A stretch of DNA of 5,758 nucleotides, taken from IMG/VR virus record IMGVR_UViG_3300045988_003271, positions 1 through 5,758 of that record; one strand, 5' to 3'. Source of the DNA: a virus. Of the stretch, positions 1-5,758 are shown piece by piece (positions within the stretch are counted from its first letter, which is position 1; each line of letters begins with the position of its first letter). The translations under genes were made by a program, and so were the position numbers. The notes beneath the pieces were generated by a model. That model searched no databases. It was not told the DNA's origin and saw nothing but the letters and a program-made list of their open reading frames with translations.

Positions 1-55
1 GACAGGCACAAGCACAGACGAACAGGCATTTGGGTACCAAGAGTGCTGGGCCGAA
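1..55. repeat. Terminal direct repeat, copy 1. It is identical to 5704..5758 and marks the overlap of a circular genome or assembly.
   Basis: A base-by-base comparison shows gacaggcacaagcacagacgaacaggcatttgggtaccaagagtgctgggccgaa at both window ends (55/55 identical). Confidence 0.97.
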
Positions 56-1152: not shown

Positions 1153-2172
1153 ATGGGATGCAATAAACCGTTAATCCGGTTCTATGTACCTCATAACAGG
1201 GAGGCGAGTGGGCGAGTGTACTCACTCGCCTCTTTTAACGAGATACACAAGACCAAAATGACTTACGAAAATTTAATGTACAGAAAAGATGTAATGTTGA
1301 TACCATGCGGACAATGCACAGGGTGCAGACTGCGCAAGCGTAAAGACTGGTCAACGCGAATGGAGCTGGAAGCATACGGACACAACAAAGAAAGTATCTG
1401 GTTTATTACGCTAACTTACGATGATGACCACGTACCAACACAGGACACGGAAACAGGCGAAATCTACAAAGGCGGAATAAACATCTGGAAAGGCGCCTCA
1501 GAGCGTCCAAAAACAGCGCAAACTCTAAGCGTAGGGGATACCCAACTATTTATGAAAAGGCTCAGAAAGGCCATCAAAGAGCCTCTAAGATACTTTTTAG
1601 CGGGAGAGTACGGAGACAACACAGCAAGACCGCACTATCATATGATACTATATGGATGGCATCCGGACGACTTAAAACCAATCCATAAGCTGTCAAGGTA
1701 CGGCCACTATACAAGCGATAAGCTAGTAAAAATCTGGGGACAAGGCGCGGTCGACATCGCACAGGCAACACCGGAAACATATAATTATGTTGCAGGGTAT
1801 GTGACCAAAAAGCTATACGGCAACGACAAAAAGCGTTACCAAAAAATGGGTTTAATACCACCATTTTGCACTATGAGCCGGAAGCCGGGACTAGGAGACA
1901 AATGGTTCGAGGACAACCAAGAACGACTCTGGCAACAAGGGTACATACAGCTTACCAACGGCAAAAGAGCGGCCATACCAGAATACTATTGGCGAAAACT
2001 GGAAGTTGAAAACCCTGAAAAAGCATGGAGAATCAAGAAATATCGACAGGAAAAAGCCATAGCGTCCCTAATCGAGAGAAACGCGGAAACCGATAAACCA
2101 TACGCGGAGCAACTGAAGGACAAAGAGACCTCCATGGCCAAAAAGATGAGCAAAGCCAAAGGCATATTTTGA
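1153..2172 (+). CDS. VP4: VP4 rolling-circle replication initiation protein (HUH endonuclease, 339 aa)
   Basis: It carries PCGQCTGCRL, the motif FITLTYDD, and the HUH motif RPHYHMILYG (HYH codons at 1633..1641). The catalytic-Tyr motif YNYVAGYVTKK lies at 1780..1812. An SD-like GGAAGAGG ends 7 nt upstream, and the ATG abuts the VP2 stop (TAAATG). Confidence 0.95.
   Translation: MGCNKPLIRFYVPHNREASGRVYSLASFNEIHKTKMTYENLMYRKDVMLIPCGQCTGCRLRKRKDWSTRMELEAYGHNKESIWFITLTYDDDHVPTQDTETGEIYKGGINIWKGASERPKTAQTLSVGDTQLFMKRLRKAIKEPLRYFLAGEYGDNTARPHYHMILYGWHPDDLKPIHKLSRYGHYTSDKLVKIWGQGAVDIAQATPETYNYVAGYVTKKLYGNDKKRYQKMGLIPPFCTMSRKPGLGDKWFEDNQERLWQQGYIQLTNGKRAAIPEYYWRKLEVENPEKAWRIKKYRQEKAIASLIERNAETDKPYAEQLKDKETSMAKKMSKAKGIF
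1201..1236 (+). other. Strong hairpin inside the 5' end of VP4, built from a tandem 8-mer plus its inverted copy and followed by TTTT
   Basis: gaggcgagtg (1201..1210) pairs 10/10 with cactcgcctc (1223..1232). An alternative register pairs ggcgagtg (1211..1218) with cactcgcc (1223..1230) around the loop tact. GGCGAGTG is tandemly duplicated at 1203..1218. T1233..T1236 follow the stem. Confidence 0.7.
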
Positions 2173-2185
2173 AACTTTGGTGTCA

Positions 2186-2223
2186 CTCAGCCAAGTAACT
2201 ATCAAGTAAGCTACTTGGCTGAG
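2186..2223 (+). terminator. Perfect 12-bp hairpin 14 nt after the VP4 stop, a candidate terminator and/or ssDNA structural element
   Basis: ctcagccaagta (2186..2197) pairs perfectly with tacttggctgag (2212..2223) around a 14-nt loop. A moderately T-rich tail, cattttattgatttgtt, follows. Confidence 0.5.
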
Positions 2224-2241: not shown

Positions 2242-2285
2242 AATGCACACGCGCGCGCACGTAATCGCGCACACGCACGTGCATT
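2242..2285. repeat. Imperfect GC-rich palindrome made of alternating purine-pyrimidine tracts
   Basis: Arms 2242..2261 and 2266..2285 pair at 15 of 20 positions around the loop taat. Positions 2243..2263 (21 nt) and 2266..2284 (19 nt) alternate R/Y perfectly. A 24-nt pure A/T run (2283..2306) follows. Confidence 0.85.
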
Positions 2286-2339
2286 ATATTATTATTTTTT
2301 TATTAACTTGTTGTAGTCGTAGTAGTAGGGAGTGTTGAA

Positions 2340-2423
2340 ATGTTGAATACTATGAATTTTTATCCTTGGAACGATATTTTTTGGCTAATTTTAATGTTGA
2401 TACTTTTGTGGATAACTTGTTGA
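2340..2423 (+). CDS. Hypothetical 27-aa hydrophobic micro-protein (MLNTMNFYPWNDIFWLILMLILLWITC)
   Basis: The ATG at 2340 sits 7 nt after the SD-like GGGAG (2328..2332), and the TGA stop is at 2421..2423. The C-terminal 15 residues are almost entirely hydrophobic. The region is AT/T-rich, so this could be a chance ORF. Confidence 0.25.
   Translation: MLNTMNFYPWNDIFWLILMLILLWITC
2407..2415 (-). promoter_or_regulatory. Perfect DnaA-box consensus (TTATCCACA on the - strand)
   Basis: The + strand reads tgtggataa at 2407..2415, the exact reverse complement of TTATCCACA. It sits at the same place in a duplicated module as the box-like site at 2471..2479. Confidence 0.35.
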
Positions 2424-2444
2424 AATGTTGAAAGCGTAGCAATA

Positions 2445-2464
2445 TGCACAAAAACCTTTGTGCA
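2445..2464 (+). other. 8-bp hairpin between the two repeat modules
   Basis: tgcacaaa (2445..2452) pairs perfectly with tttgtgca (2457..2464) around the loop aacc. Confidence 0.6.
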
Positions 2465-2470
2465 ACATTT

Positions 2471-2479
2471 TGTGGAAAA
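2471..2479 (-). promoter_or_regulatory. DnaA-box-like 9-mer (TTTTCCACA on the - strand; fits TTWTNCACA)
   Basis: The + strand reads tgtggaaaa at 2471..2479. It lies within the potential hairpin caaca-tttt[gtgg]aaaa-cc-tgttg (2463..2486). Confidence 0.3.
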
Positions 2480-2549
2480 CCTGTTGAAAGTGTTGAAAGT
2501 GTTGAAAAAGCAAATAAAGGCAGTCCGGCGAGCGAAACCGAAAAGTTGC

Positions 2550-2589
2550 GTCATGCTCTTCGCACGGCGCACCGCGCCTAACGCATGAC
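2550..2589 (+). other. GC-rich nested stem-loop in the intergenic region
   Basis: The outer stem gtcatgc (2550..2556) pairs with gcatgac (2583..2589). The inner hairpin is ggcgc (2566..2570), loop acc, gcgcc (2574..2578). It forms a GC island inside an AT-rich region. Confidence 0.55.
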
Positions 2590-2628
2590 CTTCAACACAA
2601 AAAATTCTAAACTTTTTTGAAAAAAACC

Positions 2629-2657
2629 TTAACTTTTTCGATAAAGTGTGGTAGAAT
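2629..2657 (+). promoter_or_regulatory. Sigma70-type promoter with an extended -10 element, driving the small-ORF cassette
   Basis: The -35 is TTAACT (2629..2634). After a 17-nt spacer, TG (2649..2650) and one further nt precede the -10 TAGAAT (2652..2657). An SD and start codon follow 10 to 30 nt downstream. Confidence 0.55.
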
Positions 2658-2684
2658 ATAATCACAGGAAGGAAGGTGCTAAAG

Positions 2685-2870
2685 ATGACGCACTACTACG
2701 AACTCAGAAGCTTTGAAGATGACAGAACAATAAAGACTGTACTCAAAATCTCAGCGGAACCAAAATACGCAAAACAAAGAGCAAGAGAATACGCAAAACG
2801 AAACCCGGGACTATACTCGCTAGAAAAAGTCAAAAAAGTAGAAACGTACTTCACTGAAAAGGAGAAGTAA
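2685..2870 (+). CDS. Hypothetical small protein, 61 aa. The track gives GTG 2676; I prefer ATG 2685.
   Basis: The SD AGGAAGGAAGG (2666..2676) ends 8 nt before ATG 2685. The product is charged and Lys-rich (MTHYYELRSFEDDRTIKTVLKISAEPKYAKQRAREYAKRNPGLYSLEKVKKVETYFTEKEK). I recognise no family. Confidence 0.6.
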   Translation: MTHYYELRSFEDDRTIKTVLKISAEPKYAKQRAREYAKRNPGLYSLEKVKKVETYFTEKEK

Positions 2871-2871
2871 A

Positions 2872-3069
2872 ATGAGAAAACCTAGACTGAACGAAAACAC
2901 AATAGCAAAACTCGAAATCTACGGATATGCGAAATGTAGCAAATACTACTACGAACTAACAGACTACATCGACGAGGAAGGAAACCGCTACACGGAACTT
3001 GAACGGACGGACTTAAAAACCGGAGACATAAAAACATACAATTGGGAAAAATACACAAAAGGGGCTTGA
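2872..3069 (+). CDS. Hypothetical small protein, 65 aa
   Basis: The SD AAAGGAG (2858..2864) lies 7 nt before ATG 2872. The start is 1 nt after the upstream stop. Its own stop codon is embedded in the intrinsic terminator hairpin. I recognise no family. Confidence 0.6.
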   Translation: MRKPRLNENTIAKLEIYGYAKCSKYYYELTDYIDEEGNRYTELERTDLKTGDIKTYNWEKYTKGA

Positions 3070-3086
3070 CAAGCCCCTTTTTTTTT
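3057..3086 (+). terminator. Rho-independent terminator closing the two-ORF cassette
   Basis: ggggctt (3061..3067) pairs 7/7 with aagcccc (3071..3077) around the loop gac. It is followed by T9 (3078..3086) and preceded by AAAA (3057..3060), which could extend the stem. Confidence 0.82.
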
Positions 3087-3108
3087 GATAGATTTAAAAC
3101 AGTTAAAC

Positions 3109-3128
3109 AGCACAAAAGTGCTTTTTTT
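3109..3128 (+). terminator. Second, weaker terminator-like hairpin
   Basis: agcac (3109..3113) pairs with gtgct (3118..3122) around the loop aaaa, followed by T6 (3123..3128). Confidence 0.35.
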
Positions 3129-3170
3129 ACAAAACCATTTATACAAAATATTTTTTAGGAGGTGTTTGCT

Positions 3171-3278
3171 CTGACTCTCAAGGAAATTAACGCGCTGTTT
3201 AACAACATCCGCAAAATTTTGGCCATGCTGGACAAGATTTACCACGCAGTAGAGGGCAACGAGAAGCCCAAGGAGTAA
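3171..3278 (+). CDS. Possible micro-ORF (35 aa from CTG 3171; 38 aa from GTG 3162): (M)TLKEINALFNNIRKILAMLDKIYHAVEGNEKPKE
   Basis: A strong SD, TAGGAGG (3156..3162), has no canonical start at proper spacing. An in-frame CTG lies 8 nt downstream. The last codons, AAG GAG TAA, supply the SD for the next ORF. The first in-frame ATG is at 3225. Confidence 0.25.
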   Translation: MTLKEINALFNNIRKILAMLDKIYHAVEGNEKPKE

Positions 3279-3283
3279 CCAAA

Positions 3284-3505
3284 GTGAAAACATGGAACGT
3301 AAGAGACCAGACCGATACGAACCTTATGGAAGAACTGAAGAGAACCTACAAAGAAATCGACGCCACTTACAAGCTACTGCAAAAGGCCGCAAAGTACGAC
3401 GACGCAAAATTTTACCTTGACATGGCGTTCCGAAAAAGGGCAAAAGCAACGGAAATCGAGGTGGAAATCCTCAGAAGGGAAATAAACCATGGGAAAGAGG
3501 AGTAA
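3284..3505 (+). CDS. Hypothetical small helical/charged protein, 73 aa, GTG start
   Basis: The SD AAGGAG (3270..3275) lies 8 nt before GTG 3284. The product looks coiled-coil-like (…EELKRTYKEIDATYKLLQKAAKYDDAKFYLDMAFRKRAKATEIEVEILRREI…). I recognise no family. Confidence 0.55.
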   Translation: MKTWNVRDQTDTNLMEELKRTYKEIDATYKLLQKAAKYDDAKFYLDMAFRKRAKATEIEVEILRREINHGKEE

Positions 3506-3608
3506 AGTCCGCAAATCCAAAGACGCAAAAATTTACAACAGGACCGCAAAAAAGACCAAGGCAATCAACCTTGGAAGCGGCGCAATGCGAGGAGGCATTA
3601 GATTATGA
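3489..3608 (+). CDS. Small basic DNA-binding/packaging protein (39 aa), equivalent to phiX174 J or chlamydiaphage ORF8. It is absent from the ORF track.
   Basis: My own translation gives MGKRSKVRKSKDAKIYNRTAKKTKAINLGSGAMRGGIRL. Thirteen of 39 residues are K/R. The C-terminal MRGGIRL resembles the ending I recall for gokushovirus ORF8-type proteins. An SD-like AAGGGA lies 8 nt upstream, and the stop overlaps the next start (ATGA at 3605..3608). Confidence 0.7.
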   Translation: MGKRSKVRKSKDAKIYNRTAKKTKAINLGSGAMRGGIRL

Positions 3609-3844
3609 TTAACGTGTATGGCATCTATGACCAGTGTGCAATGAGCTACATTACCACCTTTAACGAGCGAGACGACAAAGTCGCCGAGCGCAATTTTAAA
3701 ATTGCGCTGATGGACGAAAACAACATCATGAGCAAAACGCCGAGCGACTACAGACTTGTAAGACTCGCAAAATTCGACGAACACGACGGCACTTTCGAAG
3801 AGAGTAAGGAGAACATTTACGATGGCATATCGCTCAGTAAGTAA
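3605..3844 (+). CDS. VP5: VP5-like non-structural protein (79 aa; gokushovirus ORF5 family, proposed analogue of phiX174 protein C)
   Basis: The pattern Y.IYD…Y…F……AER.F……N…..P.DYRLV.L..FDE.DG.F matches my recollection of the conserved ORF5/VP5 layout. The SD GAGGAGG lies 10 nt upstream, and the gene sits next to VP3. Confidence 0.62.
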   Translation: MINVYGIYDQCAMSYITTFNERDDKVAERNFKIALMDENNIMSKTPSDYRLVRLAKFDEHDGTFEESKENIYDGISLSK

Positions 3845-4316
3845 CTTTCGAGAAACCGCAACAGCAAAACCGACCGAAGCCGGGGAAAGCGTGAGACGCA
3901 CATACCTGTGGGAACGAAACGAAAAAGGCGAAAAAGTGCTGAAACTCGACCAAATCATCGACCAGCAAGCCGAAATCGACTCCTACTTAGAGGAGACCAA
4001 AATAGAAAACATCATTCGGCGGGCAAGCATCGACCCGGAAATCGCGGCACGTATCGCGCCAGACTTAGGCGGAGGAATTCAGGACTTTACCGAAGCGCCG
4101 CATACGCTAGCCGAACTACAGAACATCATGATTCGCGCAGAACAAATCTGGGACGAAGTACCAAAAGAAATCAAGCTCAAATTTGACAACGACGTCGATA
4201 AATTTGTTGCATCGTTTGGAACAGTTGAATGGGCAAAAAACCTAGGCATATACCAGGAAAAACAGACAGAAGCCAAAACAAATGAAGCAACAGAAGCAAC
4301 GGAGGCAAAAGAATGA
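3822..4316 (+). CDS. VP3: VP3 internal scaffolding protein (164 aa)
   Basis: It lies immediately upstream of VP1, with an ATGA stop/start overlap at 4313..4316. The segment …DFTEAPHTLAELQNIMIRAEQIWDEVPKEIKLKFDNDVDKFVASF… matches the F..LP..I+..F.N....F signature I recall for the chlamydiaphage-type scaffold. The tail is acidic and low-complexity. The SD AAGGAG lies 10 nt upstream. Confidence 0.78.
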   Translation: MAYRSVSNFRETATAKPTEAGESVRRTYLWERNEKGEKVLKLDQIIDQQAEIDSYLEETKIENIIRRASIDPEIAARIAPDLGGGIQDFTEAPHTLAELQNIMIRAEQIWDEVPKEIKLKFDNDVDKFVASFGTVEWAKNLGIYQEKQTEAKTNEATEATEAKE

Positions 4317-5758
4317 ACAGAAACAAAGACGCGGGATTTAACCAAGTACCGCGACTGGACATCACGCGAAGCCGCTTTAAAAGGCGACAAGACGTCAAGT
4401 TAACACTTAACGCAGGAAAACTTATCCCGTTCTACATCGATGAAGTACTACCGGGTGATACCTTTAGCATCGACCAAGCGGCAATCATCCGCATGACAAC
4501 TCCAATCTTTCCGGTAATGGATAACTGTTACATGGACATTTATTACTTTTTCACACCGAACCGCATTCTTTGGAAAAACTGGAAGCGGTTTATGGGCGAA
4601 AACGATGCCGGGCCGTGGGCACAAACTCAAGAATACACAATCCCACAAATCAGAGTCTATGCAGACAGCCGCAATGATGTGCCGCTGGAAGGAAGCCTTA
4701 TGGACTACATGGGGATACCGACAAAAGTCTGCAAGAAAGGTAATAAAAATACAGAGTTCGAAGTGAACGCACTGCCATTCAGAGCGTACGCAATGATATG
4801 GCAAGAGTGGTTCAGGGACCAAAATGTAGATAATCCAGCTATAAACAGCGACGGAGACGCAACAGTGTCTTACGCAGACGTTAACGATGACACAAAAATA
4901 GAAGATATACTTAAAGAAGCATATCGAGGCGGCAGACCGTTACCGGTCAACAAATTTCACGACTACTTCACGAGCGCACTGCCAAGTCCACAGAAAGCAG
5001 GAGAGCCGGTAACCATTCCGCTGAGCGGAAGCGCACCACTTGGCATATATAACCCAGCAACAGGACATGTAACAACCAAAAGCAACGAGATGAAAAGTAT
5101 CGTAAGCGAAGCAGGATTAACCATCAACGGCTCAACATTCAGTGCCTCAAGTTGGGACATCGGAGACGGACCTGTAAGGGACAAAGGACTTGCAGTAGGA
5201 AATAGCACATCAACCACATACACCGGCGTAAGCTTAGGGGCAGACCTCTCAAAAATCAACGCAACCACTATCAACCAGCTAAGGCAGGCATTTCAGGTAC
5301 AAAAATACTACGAAGAGTTAGCACGAGGCGGCTCACGCTACCGCGAGATGATTTATTCGCTGTTTCACACCAAAATCAGCGATAAAACGGTACAAATCCC
5401 GGAATATTTGGGCGGTACGCGAATTACCATCAACATGAGTCAGGTCATCCAGACCAGCGGCACAACGACAGAAAGTCCACAGGGCAACACAGCGGCAGTA
5501 TCCGTGACGCCATACAATGGGAGCATGTTCACGAAGAGCTTTGAAGAACACGGCTATGTTATCGGCGTATGTTGCATCCGACATGACCATACTTACCAAC
5601 AGGGACTCGAACGTATGTGGAGTCGAAAAACAAACCTCGACTTTTACTATCCAGTTTTCGCAAATCTGGGTGAACAAGCAATCCTTAAAAAAGAAATCTA
5701 CCTGACAGGCACAAGCACAGACGAACAGGCATTTGGGTACCAAGAGTGCTGGGCCGAA
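4313..5758 (+). CDS. VP1: Major capsid protein VP1, N-terminal and central part. The frame stays open to the window end, and the gene continues at 1..313.
   Basis: The SD GGAGG (4301..4305) lies 7 nt before ATG 4313. My hand translation found no stop through 5758. Family-typical blocks include MNRNKDAGFNQVPRLDITRSRF, GKLIPFYIDEVLPGDTF, LPFRAYAMIWQEWFRDQN, INQLRQAFQVQKYYEELARGGSRYREMIYSLF and HGYVIGVCCIR. Confidence 0.95.
   Translation, partial: MNRNKDAGFNQVPRLDITRSRFKRRQDVKLTLNAGKLIPFYIDEVLPGDTFSIDQAAIIRMTTPIFPVMDNCYMDIYYFFTPNRILWKNWKRFMGENDAGPWAQTQEYTIPQIRVYADSRNDVPLEGSLMDYMGIPTKVCKKGNKNTEFEVNALPFRAYAMIWQEWFRDQNVDNPAINSDGDATVSYADVNDDTKIEDILKEAYRGGRPLPVNKFHDYFTSALPSPQKAGEPVTIPLSGSAPLGIYNPATGHVTTKSNEMKSIVSEAGLTINGSTFSASSWDIGDGPVRDKGLAVGNSTSTTYTGVSLGADLSKINATTINQLRQAFQVQKYYEELARGGSRYREMIYSLFHTKISDKTVQIPEYLGGTRITINMSQVIQTSGTTTESPQGNTAAVSVTPYNGSMFTKSFEEHGYVIGVCCIRHDHTYQQGLERMWSRKTNLDFYYPVFANLGEQAILKKEIYLTGTSTDEQAFGYQECWAE
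5704..5758. repeat. Terminal direct repeat, copy 2 (identical to 1..55)
   Basis: Identity to the first 55 bases is 55/55. Confidence 0.97.

What the first reader, a model, noticed from the sequence alone, without database searches (positions are those of the whole stretch)
2404..2499. Two DnaA-box-type 9-mers inside a duplicated ~30-nt module, next to an A/T tract: theta-origin-like or ABC-primosome-like architecture
The module TTTTGTGGAWAACYTGTTGAAA(G)TGTTGAAAG occurs twice (2404..2434 and 2468..2499), 64 nt apart, with an 8-bp hairpin between the copies. Read on the - strand, the first copy contains TTATCCACA, the exact E. coli-type DnaA-box consensus. The second contains TTTTCCACA, which fits TTWTNCACA. 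A perfect 9-mer is expected only about 0.04 times by chance on both strands of this window (2 x 5758 / 4^9). Together with the iterons and the 24-nt pure A/T run at 2283..2306, this resembles a plasmid oriV layout. Alternatively, DnaA boxes presented on ssDNA hairpins are known to nucleate the DnaA-dependent ABC primosome at plasmid single-strand initiation sites. The second box lies in a potential hairpin (2463..2486). It could therefore be an unusual complementary-strand origin for an ssDNA phage.
Basis: partly seen in the sequence, partly recalled or inferred. Interest (0 to 1): 0.7.

Follow-up and report, generated by a model that had tools for sequence, protein, structure and literature searches.

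The report
Host chromosome-origin mimic in gut microvirus
The two flagged 9-mers are two of ten same-direction host-type DnaA boxes in a small single-stranded-DNA gut phage, and together with a (TAG)n block and an A/T tract they closely copy the replication-origin opening module of gut Ruminococcus bacteria, which suggests the phage recruits the host's own replication initiator.

Summary
The duplicated module, TTATCCACA, TTTTCCACA, the 8-bp hairpin and the 24-nt A/T run are all at the stated coordinates.

The window is a circular 5,703-nt gokushovirus. The finding lies in the 500-nt non-coding region after the Rep gene VP4.

The two 9-mers are not special. They are the G-variants of one iteron family, TGT[T/G]GAAA, which has ten copies, all on the + strand. 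In relatives the same positions usually read TGTTGAAAA.

That variant is the box type found in Oscillospiraceae chromosomal origins (R. albus, R. bicirculans), where it sits among TGTGGATAA boxes.

Upstream, 2283-2349 has the order, orientation and spacing of the bacterial basal unwinding system: A/T tract, TAG-TCG-TAG-TAG-TAG (DnaA-trios), a 4-nt spacer, then tandem boxes. It matches the R. bicirculans dnaA-dnaN spacer at 30 of 35 positions. The flagged second module matches that origin's triple-box cluster.

The element is kept in more than 120 phage genomes whose Rep proteins are only 34-96% identical.

Best reading: a DnaA-driven origin mimic acting on the double-stranded replicative form. 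The hairpin (ABC-primosome) reading is not supported. I found no report of this in the literature searched.

The parts
1153..2172 (+). VP4, the HUH rolling-circle Rep. It is the only replication protein encoded. The non-coding region starts right after its stop codon.
   Evidence: PF23343 REP_ORF2-G2P, E = 7e-17; ORF list.
2186..2223 (+). Strong hairpin followed by a T-rich run. It looks like a terminator for the VP1-VP2-VP4 transcript and is also a candidate ssDNA structure.
   Evidence: Inverted repeat I2, 15 nt, 93% complementary. The fold of 2180-2290 gives z = -4.16.
2242..2285 (+). GC-rich palindrome of alternating purines and pyrimidines, directly 5' of the A/T tract. A similar (CGCGCAC)n block recurs in many relatives.
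   Evidence: (I1).
2283..2306 (.). 24-nt pure A/T tract, in the position of the AT-rich unwinding element of a bacterial origin.
   Evidence: The 12 nt upstream of the anchor average 90% A/T across 125 relatives.
2308..2328 (+). Triplet-periodic block TTG TTG TAG TCG TAG TAG TAG. [quoted passage not shown]
   Evidence: Unique in the genome. Exact in more than 120 IMG/VR contigs. Rule and orientation come from Pelliciari 2021. The trio variants seen in relatives, TAA and CAG, keep the central A.
2329..2332 (+). 4-nt spacer GGAG between the trios and the first box. The same length is seen in B. subtilis (GGCC), and C. acetobutylicum has the identical GGAG.
2333..2349 (+). Tandem boxes 1-2, TGTTGAAAT / TGTTGAATA, with an 8-nt period. 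Box 1 is the same 9-mer as the trio-proximal box of the R. bicirculans origin.
   Evidence: 30/35 identity; score 43 against shuffles 23.3 +/- 2.8. In relatives the box sits at offset 4 in 95 of 125 loci, most often as TGTGGAAAA.
2395..2403 (+). Box 3, TGTTGATAC.
2404..2434 (+). Module copy 1 of the finding. It holds box 4, TGTGGATAA (2407-2415, which is TTATCCACA on the - strand), box 5 at 2418-2426 and box 6 at 2426-2434.
2445..2464 (+). 8-bp hairpin between the two modules. Its sequence is not conserved; other subclades carry a different small hairpin here (TTCGTCA/TGACGAA).
2468..2508 (+). Module copy 2 of the finding. It holds box 7, TGTGGAAAA (2471-2479, which is TTTTCCACA on the - strand), and boxes 8-10 at 2482, 2491 and 2500 with a 9-nt period. 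It aligns to the triple-box cluster next to dnaA in R. bicirculans.
   Evidence: window 26/30; relatives L029 and L076 31/32.
2591..2598 (-). The single inverted box fragment (GTGTTGAA on the - strand) that closes the array. 31 of 125 relatives carry an inverted TTTTCCACA instead.
   Evidence: (I24, I25).
2629..2657 (+). Sigma-A-type promoter (TTAACT, 17 nt, TGgTAGAAT, with an extended -10) for the downstream small ORFs. It marks the 3' limit of the control region.
   Evidence: Relatives have TTGACA-17-TATAAT at this position.

Best explanation
The region 2283-2508 is a miniature copy of a Clostridial (Oscillospiraceae-type) chromosomal replication origin carried by a gokushovirus. Its ten same-orientation iterons, including the two flagged 9-mers, are host-type DnaA boxes.

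At its 5' end sits a complete basal unwinding system: A/T tract, DnaA-trios (TAG)n on the + strand, a 4-nt spacer, then two tandem boxes.

Proposed mechanism (inferred, not shown). In the double-stranded replicative form, host DnaA-ATP binds the boxes and oligomerises from boxes 1-2 onto the trio strand. This melts the adjacent A/T tract. The opened duplex then has one of two uses:
(a) It receives the host helicase and replisome for DnaA-dependent (theta-like) replication of the replicative form.
(b) It presents single-stranded + strand DNA, including the invariant TTGTTGTAG just 5' of the trios, to the HUH Rep VP4 for nicking.

High-copy replicative forms carrying about ten boxes would also drain DnaA away from the host origin.

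What is shown: the architecture, its conservation, and its match to real host origins. What is inferred: DnaA binding, unwinding, and the downstream use of the opened duplex.
For: 1. Orientation and spacing rule. The published B. subtilis BUS reads 5'-(TAG..TAG)-GGCC-TGTGGATT-TGTGGATAA-3', with AT-rich DNA 5' of the trios. The window reads 5'-A/T(24)-..TAG TCG TAG TAG TAG-GGAG-TGTTGAAA-TGTTGAATA-3'. The order, strand, 4-nt spacer and 8-nt box period are the same.
2. Clostridial origins use the T-variant box. C. acetobutylicum has TGTTGATAA, C. botulinum has TGTTGATA TGTTAATAA, and R. albus has TGTTGAAAA-ACC-TGTTGAAAA.
3. A metagenome scan for TGTTGAAAAnnnTGTTGAAAA gave 6 of 120 loci with dnaA adjacent, against roughly 0.2 expected by my own estimate. 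In these loci T- and G-variant boxes, including a perfect TGTGGATAA, are interleaved.
4. L275 has dnaA, a spacer, dnaN and recF, and its DnaA sequence is that of Ruminococcus bicirculans. Its spacer holds ATTAGTATTAGTAGTAG-AGTG-TGTTGAAAT-GGTTGAAAA. This part was not in the search pattern, yet it is the best local alignment to the phage region (30/35; score 43 against shuffles 23.3 +/- 2.8, maximum 33).
5. A second module, the triple-box cluster, also aligns: the window at 26/30 and relatives at 31/32. The two modules are in the same order and orientation as in the host.
6. Conservation. The 22 specified bases of the trio block are exact in more than 120 viral contigs, whose VP4 proteins are 34-96% identical to the window's (median 54%). 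The box array keeps about 80% nucleotide identity even where VP4 is below 50% identical. In GenBank gokushoviruses from human, pig, dog and monkey faeces, only 2393-2508 matches by megablast while the genes do not.
7. A box lies 4 nt after the trios in 95 of 125 loci. The commonest is TGTGGAAAA, one mismatch from the consensus.
8. A module of this kind arises in 0.3% of shuffled genomes.
9. Host fit. Gut gokushoviruses are predicted to infect Clostridiales from CRISPR spacers (PMC10159846). The phage uses strong Shine-Dalgarno sites and sigma-A promoters.
Against: - No experiment shows that DnaA binds TGTTGAAAA. That these are DnaA boxes in Ruminococcus rests on their position in dnaA-flanking spacers and on a published prediction, not on footprints.
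- The window's own trio-proximal boxes are 3 mismatches from TTATCCACA. They pass the published BUS rule only if the host-type motif is used.
- Box periods of 8-9 nt are tighter than in E. coli oriC.
- A rolling-circle phage has no obvious need for DnaA.
- The phage-specific invariance of TTGTTG 5' of the trios is not explained by the trio rule and may reflect Rep.
- The cultured gokushoviruses SpV4, Chp2 and phiMH2K lack any such module, so it is not required for gokushovirus replication in general.
- The host is inferred, not demonstrated.
- Most IMG/VR contigs come from one dataset (3300045988).
Confidence: 0.6

Rival explanations
1. The iterons and the invariant TTGTTGTAGnnGTAGTAGTAG block are the phage's own rolling-circle (+) origin. 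VP4 would bind the repeats, as geminivirus or pMV158 Reps bind their iterons, and would nick in or next to the block. On this reading the resemblance to host origins is coincidental.
For: The region directly follows the Rep gene. AACTTG at 2305-2310 matches the phiX174 and pC194 nick core CAACTTG^ATA (this is from my own knowledge; sequence). The TTGTTG block is invariant but is not explained by the trio rule. Every rolling-circle phage must have a nick site somewhere, and none is known for gokushoviruses.
Against: The iteron sequence stays the same while VP4 diverges to 34-55% identity, whereas Rep-iteron pairs normally co-vary. AACTTG itself varies in relatives (TACTTG, TATTTG, AATTTG, AAGTTG). 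Two separate modules match a bacterial dnaA-dnaN spacer in order and orientation, and a chromosome has no VP4. SpV4, Chp2 and phiMH2K, which have homologous Reps, lack the repeats. A nick site inside the DnaA-opened zone is compatible with the best explanation, so the two readings are not exclusive.
Confidence: 0.15
2. The array binds DnaA but is not an origin. It would act as a DnaA sink or sensor. High-copy replicative forms would titrate DnaA and shut off host chromosome initiation (as B. subtilis DnaA-box clusters do on plasmids), or DnaA would regulate the nearby phage promoter.
For: There are ten boxes per genome on a multicopy replicative form. B. subtilis DnaA-box clusters on plasmids are known to inhibit initiation, which is the origin of the 'inc' names (this is from my own knowledge). 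A promoter lies about 120 nt downstream of the array.
Against: Titration or transcriptional control does not need trios at a fixed 4-nt distance from the first box, or an A/T tract on the correct side. Both are the most conserved parts of the region. The array ends about 120 nt before the -35 element.
Confidence: 0.12
3. This is a complementary-strand origin acting on the incoming single strand. DnaA boxes presented in ssDNA hairpins would nucleate an ABC-primosome-like complex.
For: The trios lie on the packaged strand. Small hairpins exist at 2445-2464 and 2463-2486. One inverted box fragment (2591-2598) could pair with a direct copy (I11, I24, I25). The precedent is the DnaA-box hairpin 'A site' of R6K and pBR322 (this is from my own knowledge).
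Against: As ssDNA, 2400-2510 folds no better than shuffles (z = -0.76). Region 2283-2400 is essentially unstructured (-1 kcal/mol, z = +1.07), and the whole region gives z = -0.53. The boxes next to the trios have no complementary partner. All ten boxes are direct repeats. The hairpin between the modules is not conserved in sequence. The only strong hairpins (2186-2285) contain no boxes, and they are better candidates for a complementary-strand origin.
Confidence: 0.05
4. The repeats bind another host factor, for example Spo0A (0A box TGTCGAA) or an unknown regulator. They would gate phage development rather than replication.
For: TGTTGAA is one base from the 0A box. Spo0A sites overlap DnaA boxes at the B. 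subtilis origin and control phi29 (this is from my own knowledge).
Against: The diagnostic C at position 4 occurs once in 1,129 GTnGAA sites across 125 relatives. This reading does not explain the trios and the A/T tract.
Confidence: 0.03

Closest known systems
Bacterial chromosome-origin basal unwinding system (BUS: DnaA boxes #6/#7, DnaA-trios and an AT-rich element of B. subtilis oriC; Richardson 2016/2019, Pelliciari 2021)
   Same: The order (AT-rich, trios, about 4-nt spacer, two tandem boxes) is the same. The trio strand and box orientation are the same. Three perfect 5'-TAG-3' trios lie next to the boxes. The 8-nt box period is the same.
   Different: It sits on a 5.7-kb ssDNA phage with no dnaA or dnaN nearby. 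The boxes are mostly the TGTTGAAA variant. A phage-specific invariant TTGTTG precedes the trios. DnaA binding has not been tested.
Ruminococcus bicirculans dnaA-dnaN intergenic origin (locus L275) and the R. albus 7 origin (DoriC/Pelliciari table)
   Same: The BUS is 30/35 identical, including the 9-mer TGTTGAAAT. The triple-box cluster is 26/30 identical in the window and 31/32 in relatives. All boxes lie on the trio strand. The two modules are in the same order.
   Different: The host modules are about 290 nt apart and the phage modules about 100-150 nt apart. The intervening sequence is unrelated, so this is not a recent wholesale capture.
Plasmid and phage theta origins that contain DnaA boxes (P1 oriR, pSC101, RK2 oriV, F)
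   Same: DnaA boxes sit next to an AT-rich region in a mobile replicon.
   Different: Those origins have separate iterons for a plasmid-encoded initiator. Here the iterons are the DnaA boxes, no theta-type initiator is encoded, and a trio block is present.
ABC-primosome 'A site' (a DnaA box in an ssDNA hairpin; R6K, pBR322)
   Same: A DnaA box on a replicon that passes through a single-stranded stage.
   Different: No stable hairpin carrying a box is predicted.
phiX174 (+) origin CAACTTG^ATATTAATAAC and pC194-type nick sites
   Same: AACTTG occurs at 2305-2310, next to A/T-rich DNA and downstream of the Rep gene.
   Different: The hexamer is not conserved in relatives, and the rest of the 30-nt origin is absent.

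Membership tests
Basal unwinding system (BUS) of bacterial origins | At least three consecutive DnaA-trios (NAN with a central A; consensus 3'-GAT-5', which is 5'-TAG-3') | tested here: met
   TAG TAG TAG lies at 2320-2328, with a further TAG at 2314-2316. The run is conserved in more than 120 relatives, and the variants TAA and CAG keep the central A.
Basal unwinding system (BUS) of bacterial origins | A DnaA box with at most 2 mismatches to TTATCCACA within 0-16 bp of the trios (default motif of the published program) | tested here: inconclusive
   The window's boxes TGTTGAAAT and TGTTGAATA are 3 mismatches away, so the window itself does not meet the rule. Among relatives, 41 of 125 have TGTGGAAAA (1 mismatch) and 31 of 125 have a 2-mismatch box at the same 4-nt offset.
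Basal unwinding system (BUS) of bacterial origins | A DnaA box matching the species-specific motif within 0-16 bp of the trios | tested here: met
   Box 1, TGTTGAAAT, is the identical 9-mer at the identical position (4 nt after TAGTAGTAG) in the R. bicirculans dnaA-dnaN spacer. R. albus boxes are TGTTGAAAA. The host assignment is inferred.
Basal unwinding system (BUS) of bacterial origins | Fixed order and orientation: AT-rich element, then trios, then a short spacer, then boxes reading 5'-TGTGGATAA-3' on the trio strand | tested here: met
   The window's + strand was compared with 5'->3' oligonucleotides and table entries for B. subtilis and D. radiodurans.
Basal unwinding system (BUS) of bacterial origins | DnaA-ATP binds the boxes, oligomerises on the trios and separates the strands | not testable with these tools
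   This needs EMSA, strand-separation assays or KMnO4 footprinting.
Chromosomal oriC | Located on a bacterial chromosome next to dnaA and dnaN | tested here: not met
   The element lies in a circular 5,703-nt microvirus genome between VP4 and small ORFs. It is a mimic of oriC, not a member.
Iteron-type theta plasmid/phage oriV | The replicon encodes an initiator that binds iterons distinct from the DnaA boxes | tested here: not met
   Only an HUH Rep (PF23343) is encoded. Of the other proteins, the scaffold matches PF09675 and ORF5 matches PF20577. The remaining ORFs had no Pfam match; VP2 and VP1 were recognised from relatives' annotations. The iterons and the boxes are one sequence family.
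ABC-primosome single-strand initiation site | A DnaA box held in the stem of a stable ssDNA hairpin | tested here: not met
   DNA folds give z = -0.76 for 2400-2510 and z = +1.07 for 2283-2400. There are no inverted copies of the boxes apart from one 8-nt fragment.
phiX174-type (+) origin | A conserved CAACTTG^ATA core with a downstream recognition sequence | tested here: not met
   AACTTG is present in the window but replaced by TACTTG, TATTTG, AATTTG or AAGTTG in relatives. There is no ATATTAATAAC.
Gokushovirinae (genome context) | VP1, VP2, VP3 (Chlamydia-phage scaffold), VP4 Rep and ORF5/VP5 on one strand of a genome of about 4.5-6 kb | tested here: met
   PF23343, PF09675 and PF20577 matched. 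The window is 85.7% identical to Gokushovirus WZ-2015a over 90% of its length.

The most novel reading that the evidence does not exclude
A large clade of human and animal gut gokushoviruses replicates or maintains its double-stranded replicative form by hijacking host DnaA through a copied chromosomal-origin unwinding module. It would be, as far as my literature search shows, the first DnaA-trio/BUS origin reported in a virus and the first DnaA-dependent microvirus. The replicative form might replicate theta-fashion and persist like a plasmid, in step with the host cell cycle. The phage's box and trio sequence would also serve as a readable signature of its host, here Ruminococcus/Oscillospiraceae.
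Probability: 0.4. Interest if true: 0.85.

Novelty: new variant of a known kind. Interest (0 to 1): 0.77.

Why it matters
- Microvirus replication is textbook rolling-circle biology built on phiX174. There the host factors are PriA, Rep helicase and Pol III, and DnaA plays no part. A conserved origin-opening module for DnaA in a very abundant group of gut microviruses would add a new host-dependency and possibly a new replication or persistence mode.
- It would explain why the non-coding region is better conserved than the genes.
- It gives a sequence-only route to host assignment for uncultured microviruses, by matching phage boxes and trios to bacterial origins.
- It offers a ready-made minimal origin for building vectors in hard-to-engineer gut Clostridia.
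- The same search also turned up canonical trio-plus-box modules in larger viral contigs, so origin mimicry may be widespread in phages.

Tried and rejected
- **phiX-like nick site.** AACTTG at 2305 looked like CAACTTG^ATA, but the hexamer varies in relatives chosen independently of it. It occurs 3 times in the window against 0.95 expected. I dropped it as primary evidence.
- **ssDNA hairpin / ABC primosome.** The folds are not significant.
- **Spo0A 0A box.** The diagnostic C occurs in 1 of 1,129 sites.
- **Apparent natural deletion of the array in L075.** This was an artefact of my circularising an incomplete linear contig.
- **Rfam.** There was nothing in the region. The only hits were sub-threshold SraG and STnc50 near 3050-3217(-).
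- **Plasmid database.** Only chance-level 38-nt hits were found.
- **Genome collection scan with the 24-mer.** It returned one 5.7-kb phage contig binned with 'Bacteroides sp. CAG:545', which is weak host evidence and contradicted by the phage's Shine-Dalgarno and sigma-A signals. It also returned one chance match in a 130-kb contig without iterons.
- **Literature.** I found no paper linking gokushoviruses or Microviridae with DnaA boxes, and no report of DnaA-trios in phages.
- **Cultured gokushoviruses.** SpV4, Chp2 and phiMH2K carry no such module.
Full report
**1. Context**

The window is a complete circular gokushovirus genome of 5,703 nt; positions 1-55 repeat at 5704-5758. All genes are on the + strand:
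- VP1 at 4313, wrapping round to 313
- VP2 at 358-1152
- the HUH Rep VP4 at 1153-2172 (PF23343)
- small ORFs at 2676-3608
- ORF5 at 3605-3844 (PF20577)
- the scaffold VP3 at 3822-4316 (PF09675)

The window is 85.7% identical over 90% of its length to Gokushovirus WZ-2015a from human faeces. In Microviridae the packaged strand has mRNA sense (established knowledge), so the window's + strand is the viral strand. The finding lies in an unusually long non-coding region, 2173 to about 2675, directly after VP4.

**2. Observation check**

- the two module copies at 2404-2434 and 2468-2499, 64 nt apart
- TTATCCACA at 2407-2415(-)
- TTTTCCACA at 2471-2479(-)
- the 8-bp hairpin at 2445-2464
- the 24-nt pure A/T run at 2283-2306

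The statistically striking feature is broader than the two 9-mers. TGTTGAAA occurs six times, all on the + strand within 2333-2507 (0 of 200 shuffles reach this). With one degenerate pattern there are ten + strand copies and none on the - strand.

**3. The two 9-mers are variants of the iteron**

I collected relatives in three independent ways:
- BLAST against GenBank phages
- VP4 protein similarity
- a 24-mer from the conserved block (more than 120 contigs, 125 regions analysed)

Across 125 regions there are on average 8.3 + strand copies of nGT[G/T]GA[A/T]An and 0.28 on the - strand. The profile is T(86%) G T [T 83% / G 17%] G A A(95%) A [A/G].

At the position of the first flagged box, relatives read TGTTGAAAA in 73 of 97 cases, TGTGGATAA in 17 and TGTGGAAAA in 6. 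At the second flagged box they read TGTTGAAAA in 42 of 76 and TGTGGAAAA in 34. The perfect E. coli-type box is therefore confined to the window's close relatives, and G and T swap freely at box position 4.

**4. The non-coding element is better conserved than the genes**

In many GenBank gokushoviruses from human, pig, dog and monkey faeces, megablast matches only 2393-2508 (86-88% identity) and none of the genes. The phages that share the exact trio block have VP4 proteins 34-96% identical to the window's, with a median of 54%. The box array still keeps about 80% nucleotide identity when VP4 is below 50% identical. In some such phages it reaches 97-100%, which implies the module is exchanged by recombination. 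A ligand that stays constant while Rep diverges points to a host factor.

**5. A basal-unwinding-system layout upstream of the finding**

Between the A/T run and the first iterons lies TTG TTG TAG TCG TAG TAG TAG (2308-2328). TAGTAGTAG is unique in the genome.

The DnaA-trio, the single-strand binding motif of DnaA at bacterial origins, has the consensus 3'-GAT-5', which is 5'-TAG-3'. The published search rule requires a box within 0-16 bp of at least three NAN trios, with a second box allowed.

The supplement of Pelliciari et al. 2021 gives the B. subtilis element. I reversed it and confirmed the orientation with the paper's 5'->3' oligonucleotides. It reads 5'-AT-rich-TAGTAGAAGTAATAGTAG-GGCC-TGTGGATT-TGTGGATAA-3'.

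The phage + strand reads 5'-A/T(24)-AACTTGTTG-TAGTCGTAGTAGTAG-GGAG-TGTTGAAA-TGTTGAATA-3'. Order, strand, 4-nt spacer and 8-nt box period coincide.

In 95 of 125 relatives a box sits exactly 4 nt after the trios, most often TGTGGAAAA, one mismatch from the consensus. The two trio variants I found in relatives, TAA and CAG, both keep the critical central A. A module of this type arises in 0.3% of shuffled genomes.

**6. The T-variant box is a host-type DnaA box**

The same published table lists Clostridial origins with T-variant boxes:
- C. acetobutylicum: trios-GGAG-TGTGGATT-TGTTGATAA
- C. botulinum: trios-GGCT-TGTTGATA-TGTTAATAA
- Ruminococcus albus 7: TGTTGAAAA-ACC-TGTTGAAAA

I scanned metagenome contigs for TGTTGAAAAnnnTGTTGAAAA. 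This spacing is not used by the phage. Six of 120 loci carry dnaA right next to the match, against about 0.2 expected by my own estimate. In these spacers T-variant and G-variant boxes, including a perfect TGTGGATAA, are interleaved in one orientation.

Locus L275 has dnaA, a spacer, dnaN and recF. Its DnaA sequence is identical to that of Ruminococcus bicirculans / Ruminococcus sp. of the Oscillospiraceae, a protein seen on more than 1,000 contigs. A second locus, L204, is from an Oscillospiraceae MAG.

**7. Two modules match the R. bicirculans origin**

The best local alignment between the phage non-coding region and the L275 spacer is the unwinding module itself:
- window 2314-2348: TAGTCGTAGTAGTAGGGAGTGTTGAAATGTTGAA
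- host: TAGTATTAGTAGTAGAGTGTGTTGAAATGGTTGAA

This is 30 of 35 positions, with a score of 43 against shuffles at 23.3 +/- 2.8 and a maximum of 33. This part of the host spacer was not in my search pattern.

In relatives L029 and L076 the same cluster is 31 of 32 identical, and their unwinding module also aligns.

Both modules are in the same order and orientation as in the host. The host spacer has eight boxes, all on the trio strand, and the phage has ten. The sequence between the modules is unrelated, so this is mimicry or an old capture, not a recent wholesale transfer.

**8. Host**

Gut gokushoviruses are predicted to infect Clostridiales from CRISPR spacers (Shah et al. 2023, PMC10159846). 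The phage uses strong GGAGG-type ribosome-binding sites and sigma-A promoters with an extended -10. These are not the signals of Bacteroidales. The origin match narrows the likely hosts to Ruminococcus/Oscillospiraceae; this is an inference.

**9. Mechanism**

Shown: the architecture, its conservation, and its match to chromosomal origins.

Inferred: on the double-stranded replicative form, host DnaA-ATP occupies the boxes, extends from boxes 1-2 onto the (TAG)n strand and melts the A/T tract. The opened duplex could then be used in one of three ways:
(a) to load the host helicase for DnaA-dependent replication of the replicative form
(b) to expose + strand single-stranded DNA, including the invariant phage-specific TTGTTGTAG, to VP4 for nicking
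(c) additionally, to act as a DnaA sink that starves the host origin

I cannot separate these three computationally.

The strong hairpins at 2186-2223 and 2242-2285 (z = -4.2) contain no boxes. They are better candidates for a terminator and for the complementary-strand origin.

**10. Rivals**

- **Rep-bound iterons and nick site.** This is weakened by the constancy of the iterons across divergent Reps, by the variability of AACTTG, by the match to a chromosome that has no VP4, and by the absence of the repeats from SpV4, Chp2 and phiMH2K. A nick site within the opened zone remains possible.
- **ABC-primosome / hairpin reading.** The box region is unstructured as ssDNA.
- **Spo0A.** The diagnostic base is absent.
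- **Pure titration or transcriptional control.** This does not explain the trios and the A/T tract at fixed geometry.

**11. Novelty**

DnaA boxes are known in plasmid and phage theta origins, and the BUS is known in chromosomes. In the searchable library I found no paper linking gokushoviruses or Microviridae with DnaA, and none reporting DnaA-trios in a phage. I therefore rate this a new variant of a known kind: a chromosomal-origin unwinding module mimicked by an ssDNA rolling-circle phage.

**12. Caveats**

- DnaA binding to TGTTGAAA has not been tested.
- The window's own trio-proximal boxes fail the default mismatch rule (at most 2 mismatches).
- The host is inferred.
- Many IMG/VR contigs come from one dataset, although GenBank records from several studies and host animals agree.

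Noticed in passing
window 2242-2285 (and 2186-2223): There is a GC-rich palindrome of alternating purines and pyrimidines (AATGCACACGCGCGCGCACG / CGCGCACACGCACGTGCATT) directly 5' of the A/T tract. Together with the post-VP4 hairpin it is the only significantly structured ssDNA in the region (z = -4.2). Similar (CGCGCAC)n blocks recur at this position in many relatives. It is a candidate complementary-strand origin or Z-DNA former.
   Followed up: partly
window 2521-2590: A GC-rich block (GGCAGTCCGGCGAGCGAAACCG...CGCATGACC) is shared with otherwise distant relatives (MT135258, MG945135). Its predicted ssDNA fold is not better than shuffles, and its function is unknown.
   Followed up: partly
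window 2599-2640: There is a 21-nt tandem direct repeat (AAAAAATTCTAAACTTTTTTG / AAAAAAACCTTAACTTTTTCG) whose second copy overlaps the -35 hexamer (2629-2634) of the extended -10 promoter at 2629-2657.
   Followed up: no
window 1-55 and 5704-5758: The window ends repeat exactly over 55 nt, so the genome is a 5,703-nt circle. VP1 (567 aa) spans the junction, from 4313 to 313.
   Followed up: yes
loci L400, L409-L411, L413, L416, L425, L428, L431, L435, L443 (IMG/VR contigs of 12-160 kb): These contigs carry canonical trio-plus-box modules (for example TAGTAGTAG-GGGC-TGTGGATA-ATGTGGATAA), most of them with AT-rich DNA upstream. No dnaA lies within the fetched flanks. BUS-like origins may be common in larger phages or phage-plasmids.
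   Followed up: partly
loci with VP4 <50% identical to the window (e.g. L007, L015): Some phages with very divergent Rep proteins carry a box array 97-100% identical to the window's. This implies that the non-coding module moves between phage lineages by recombination.
   Followed up: partly
L199 4177-4200 (CAYGSB010000005.1, a 130-kb MAG contig): The 24-mer AACTTGTTGTAGTCGTAGTAGTAG matches exactly inside what looks like coding sequence, with no iterons around it. I judged it a chance match. The surrounding 4 kb has unusually few long ORFs under genetic code 11.
   Followed up: partly
L198 (CAVKUS010000079.1, 5,739 nt): A complete relative of this phage is binned into a MAG named Bacteroides sp. 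CAG:545. This is probably a binning artefact, given the phage's Shine-Dalgarno and sigma-A signals.
   Followed up: no
window 3056-3217 (-): A sub-threshold Rfam SraG hit (35 bits against a gathering score of 50) overlaps a terminator-like hairpin and T-run at about 3063-3080. It is probably spurious.
   Followed up: no
window 3489-3608: A 39-aa Lys/Arg-rich ORF (MGKRSKVRKSKDAKIYNRTAKKTKAINLG...) resembles the small DNA-binding packaging proteins (J / ORF8 type) of microviruses. It had no Pfam hit.
   Followed up: no
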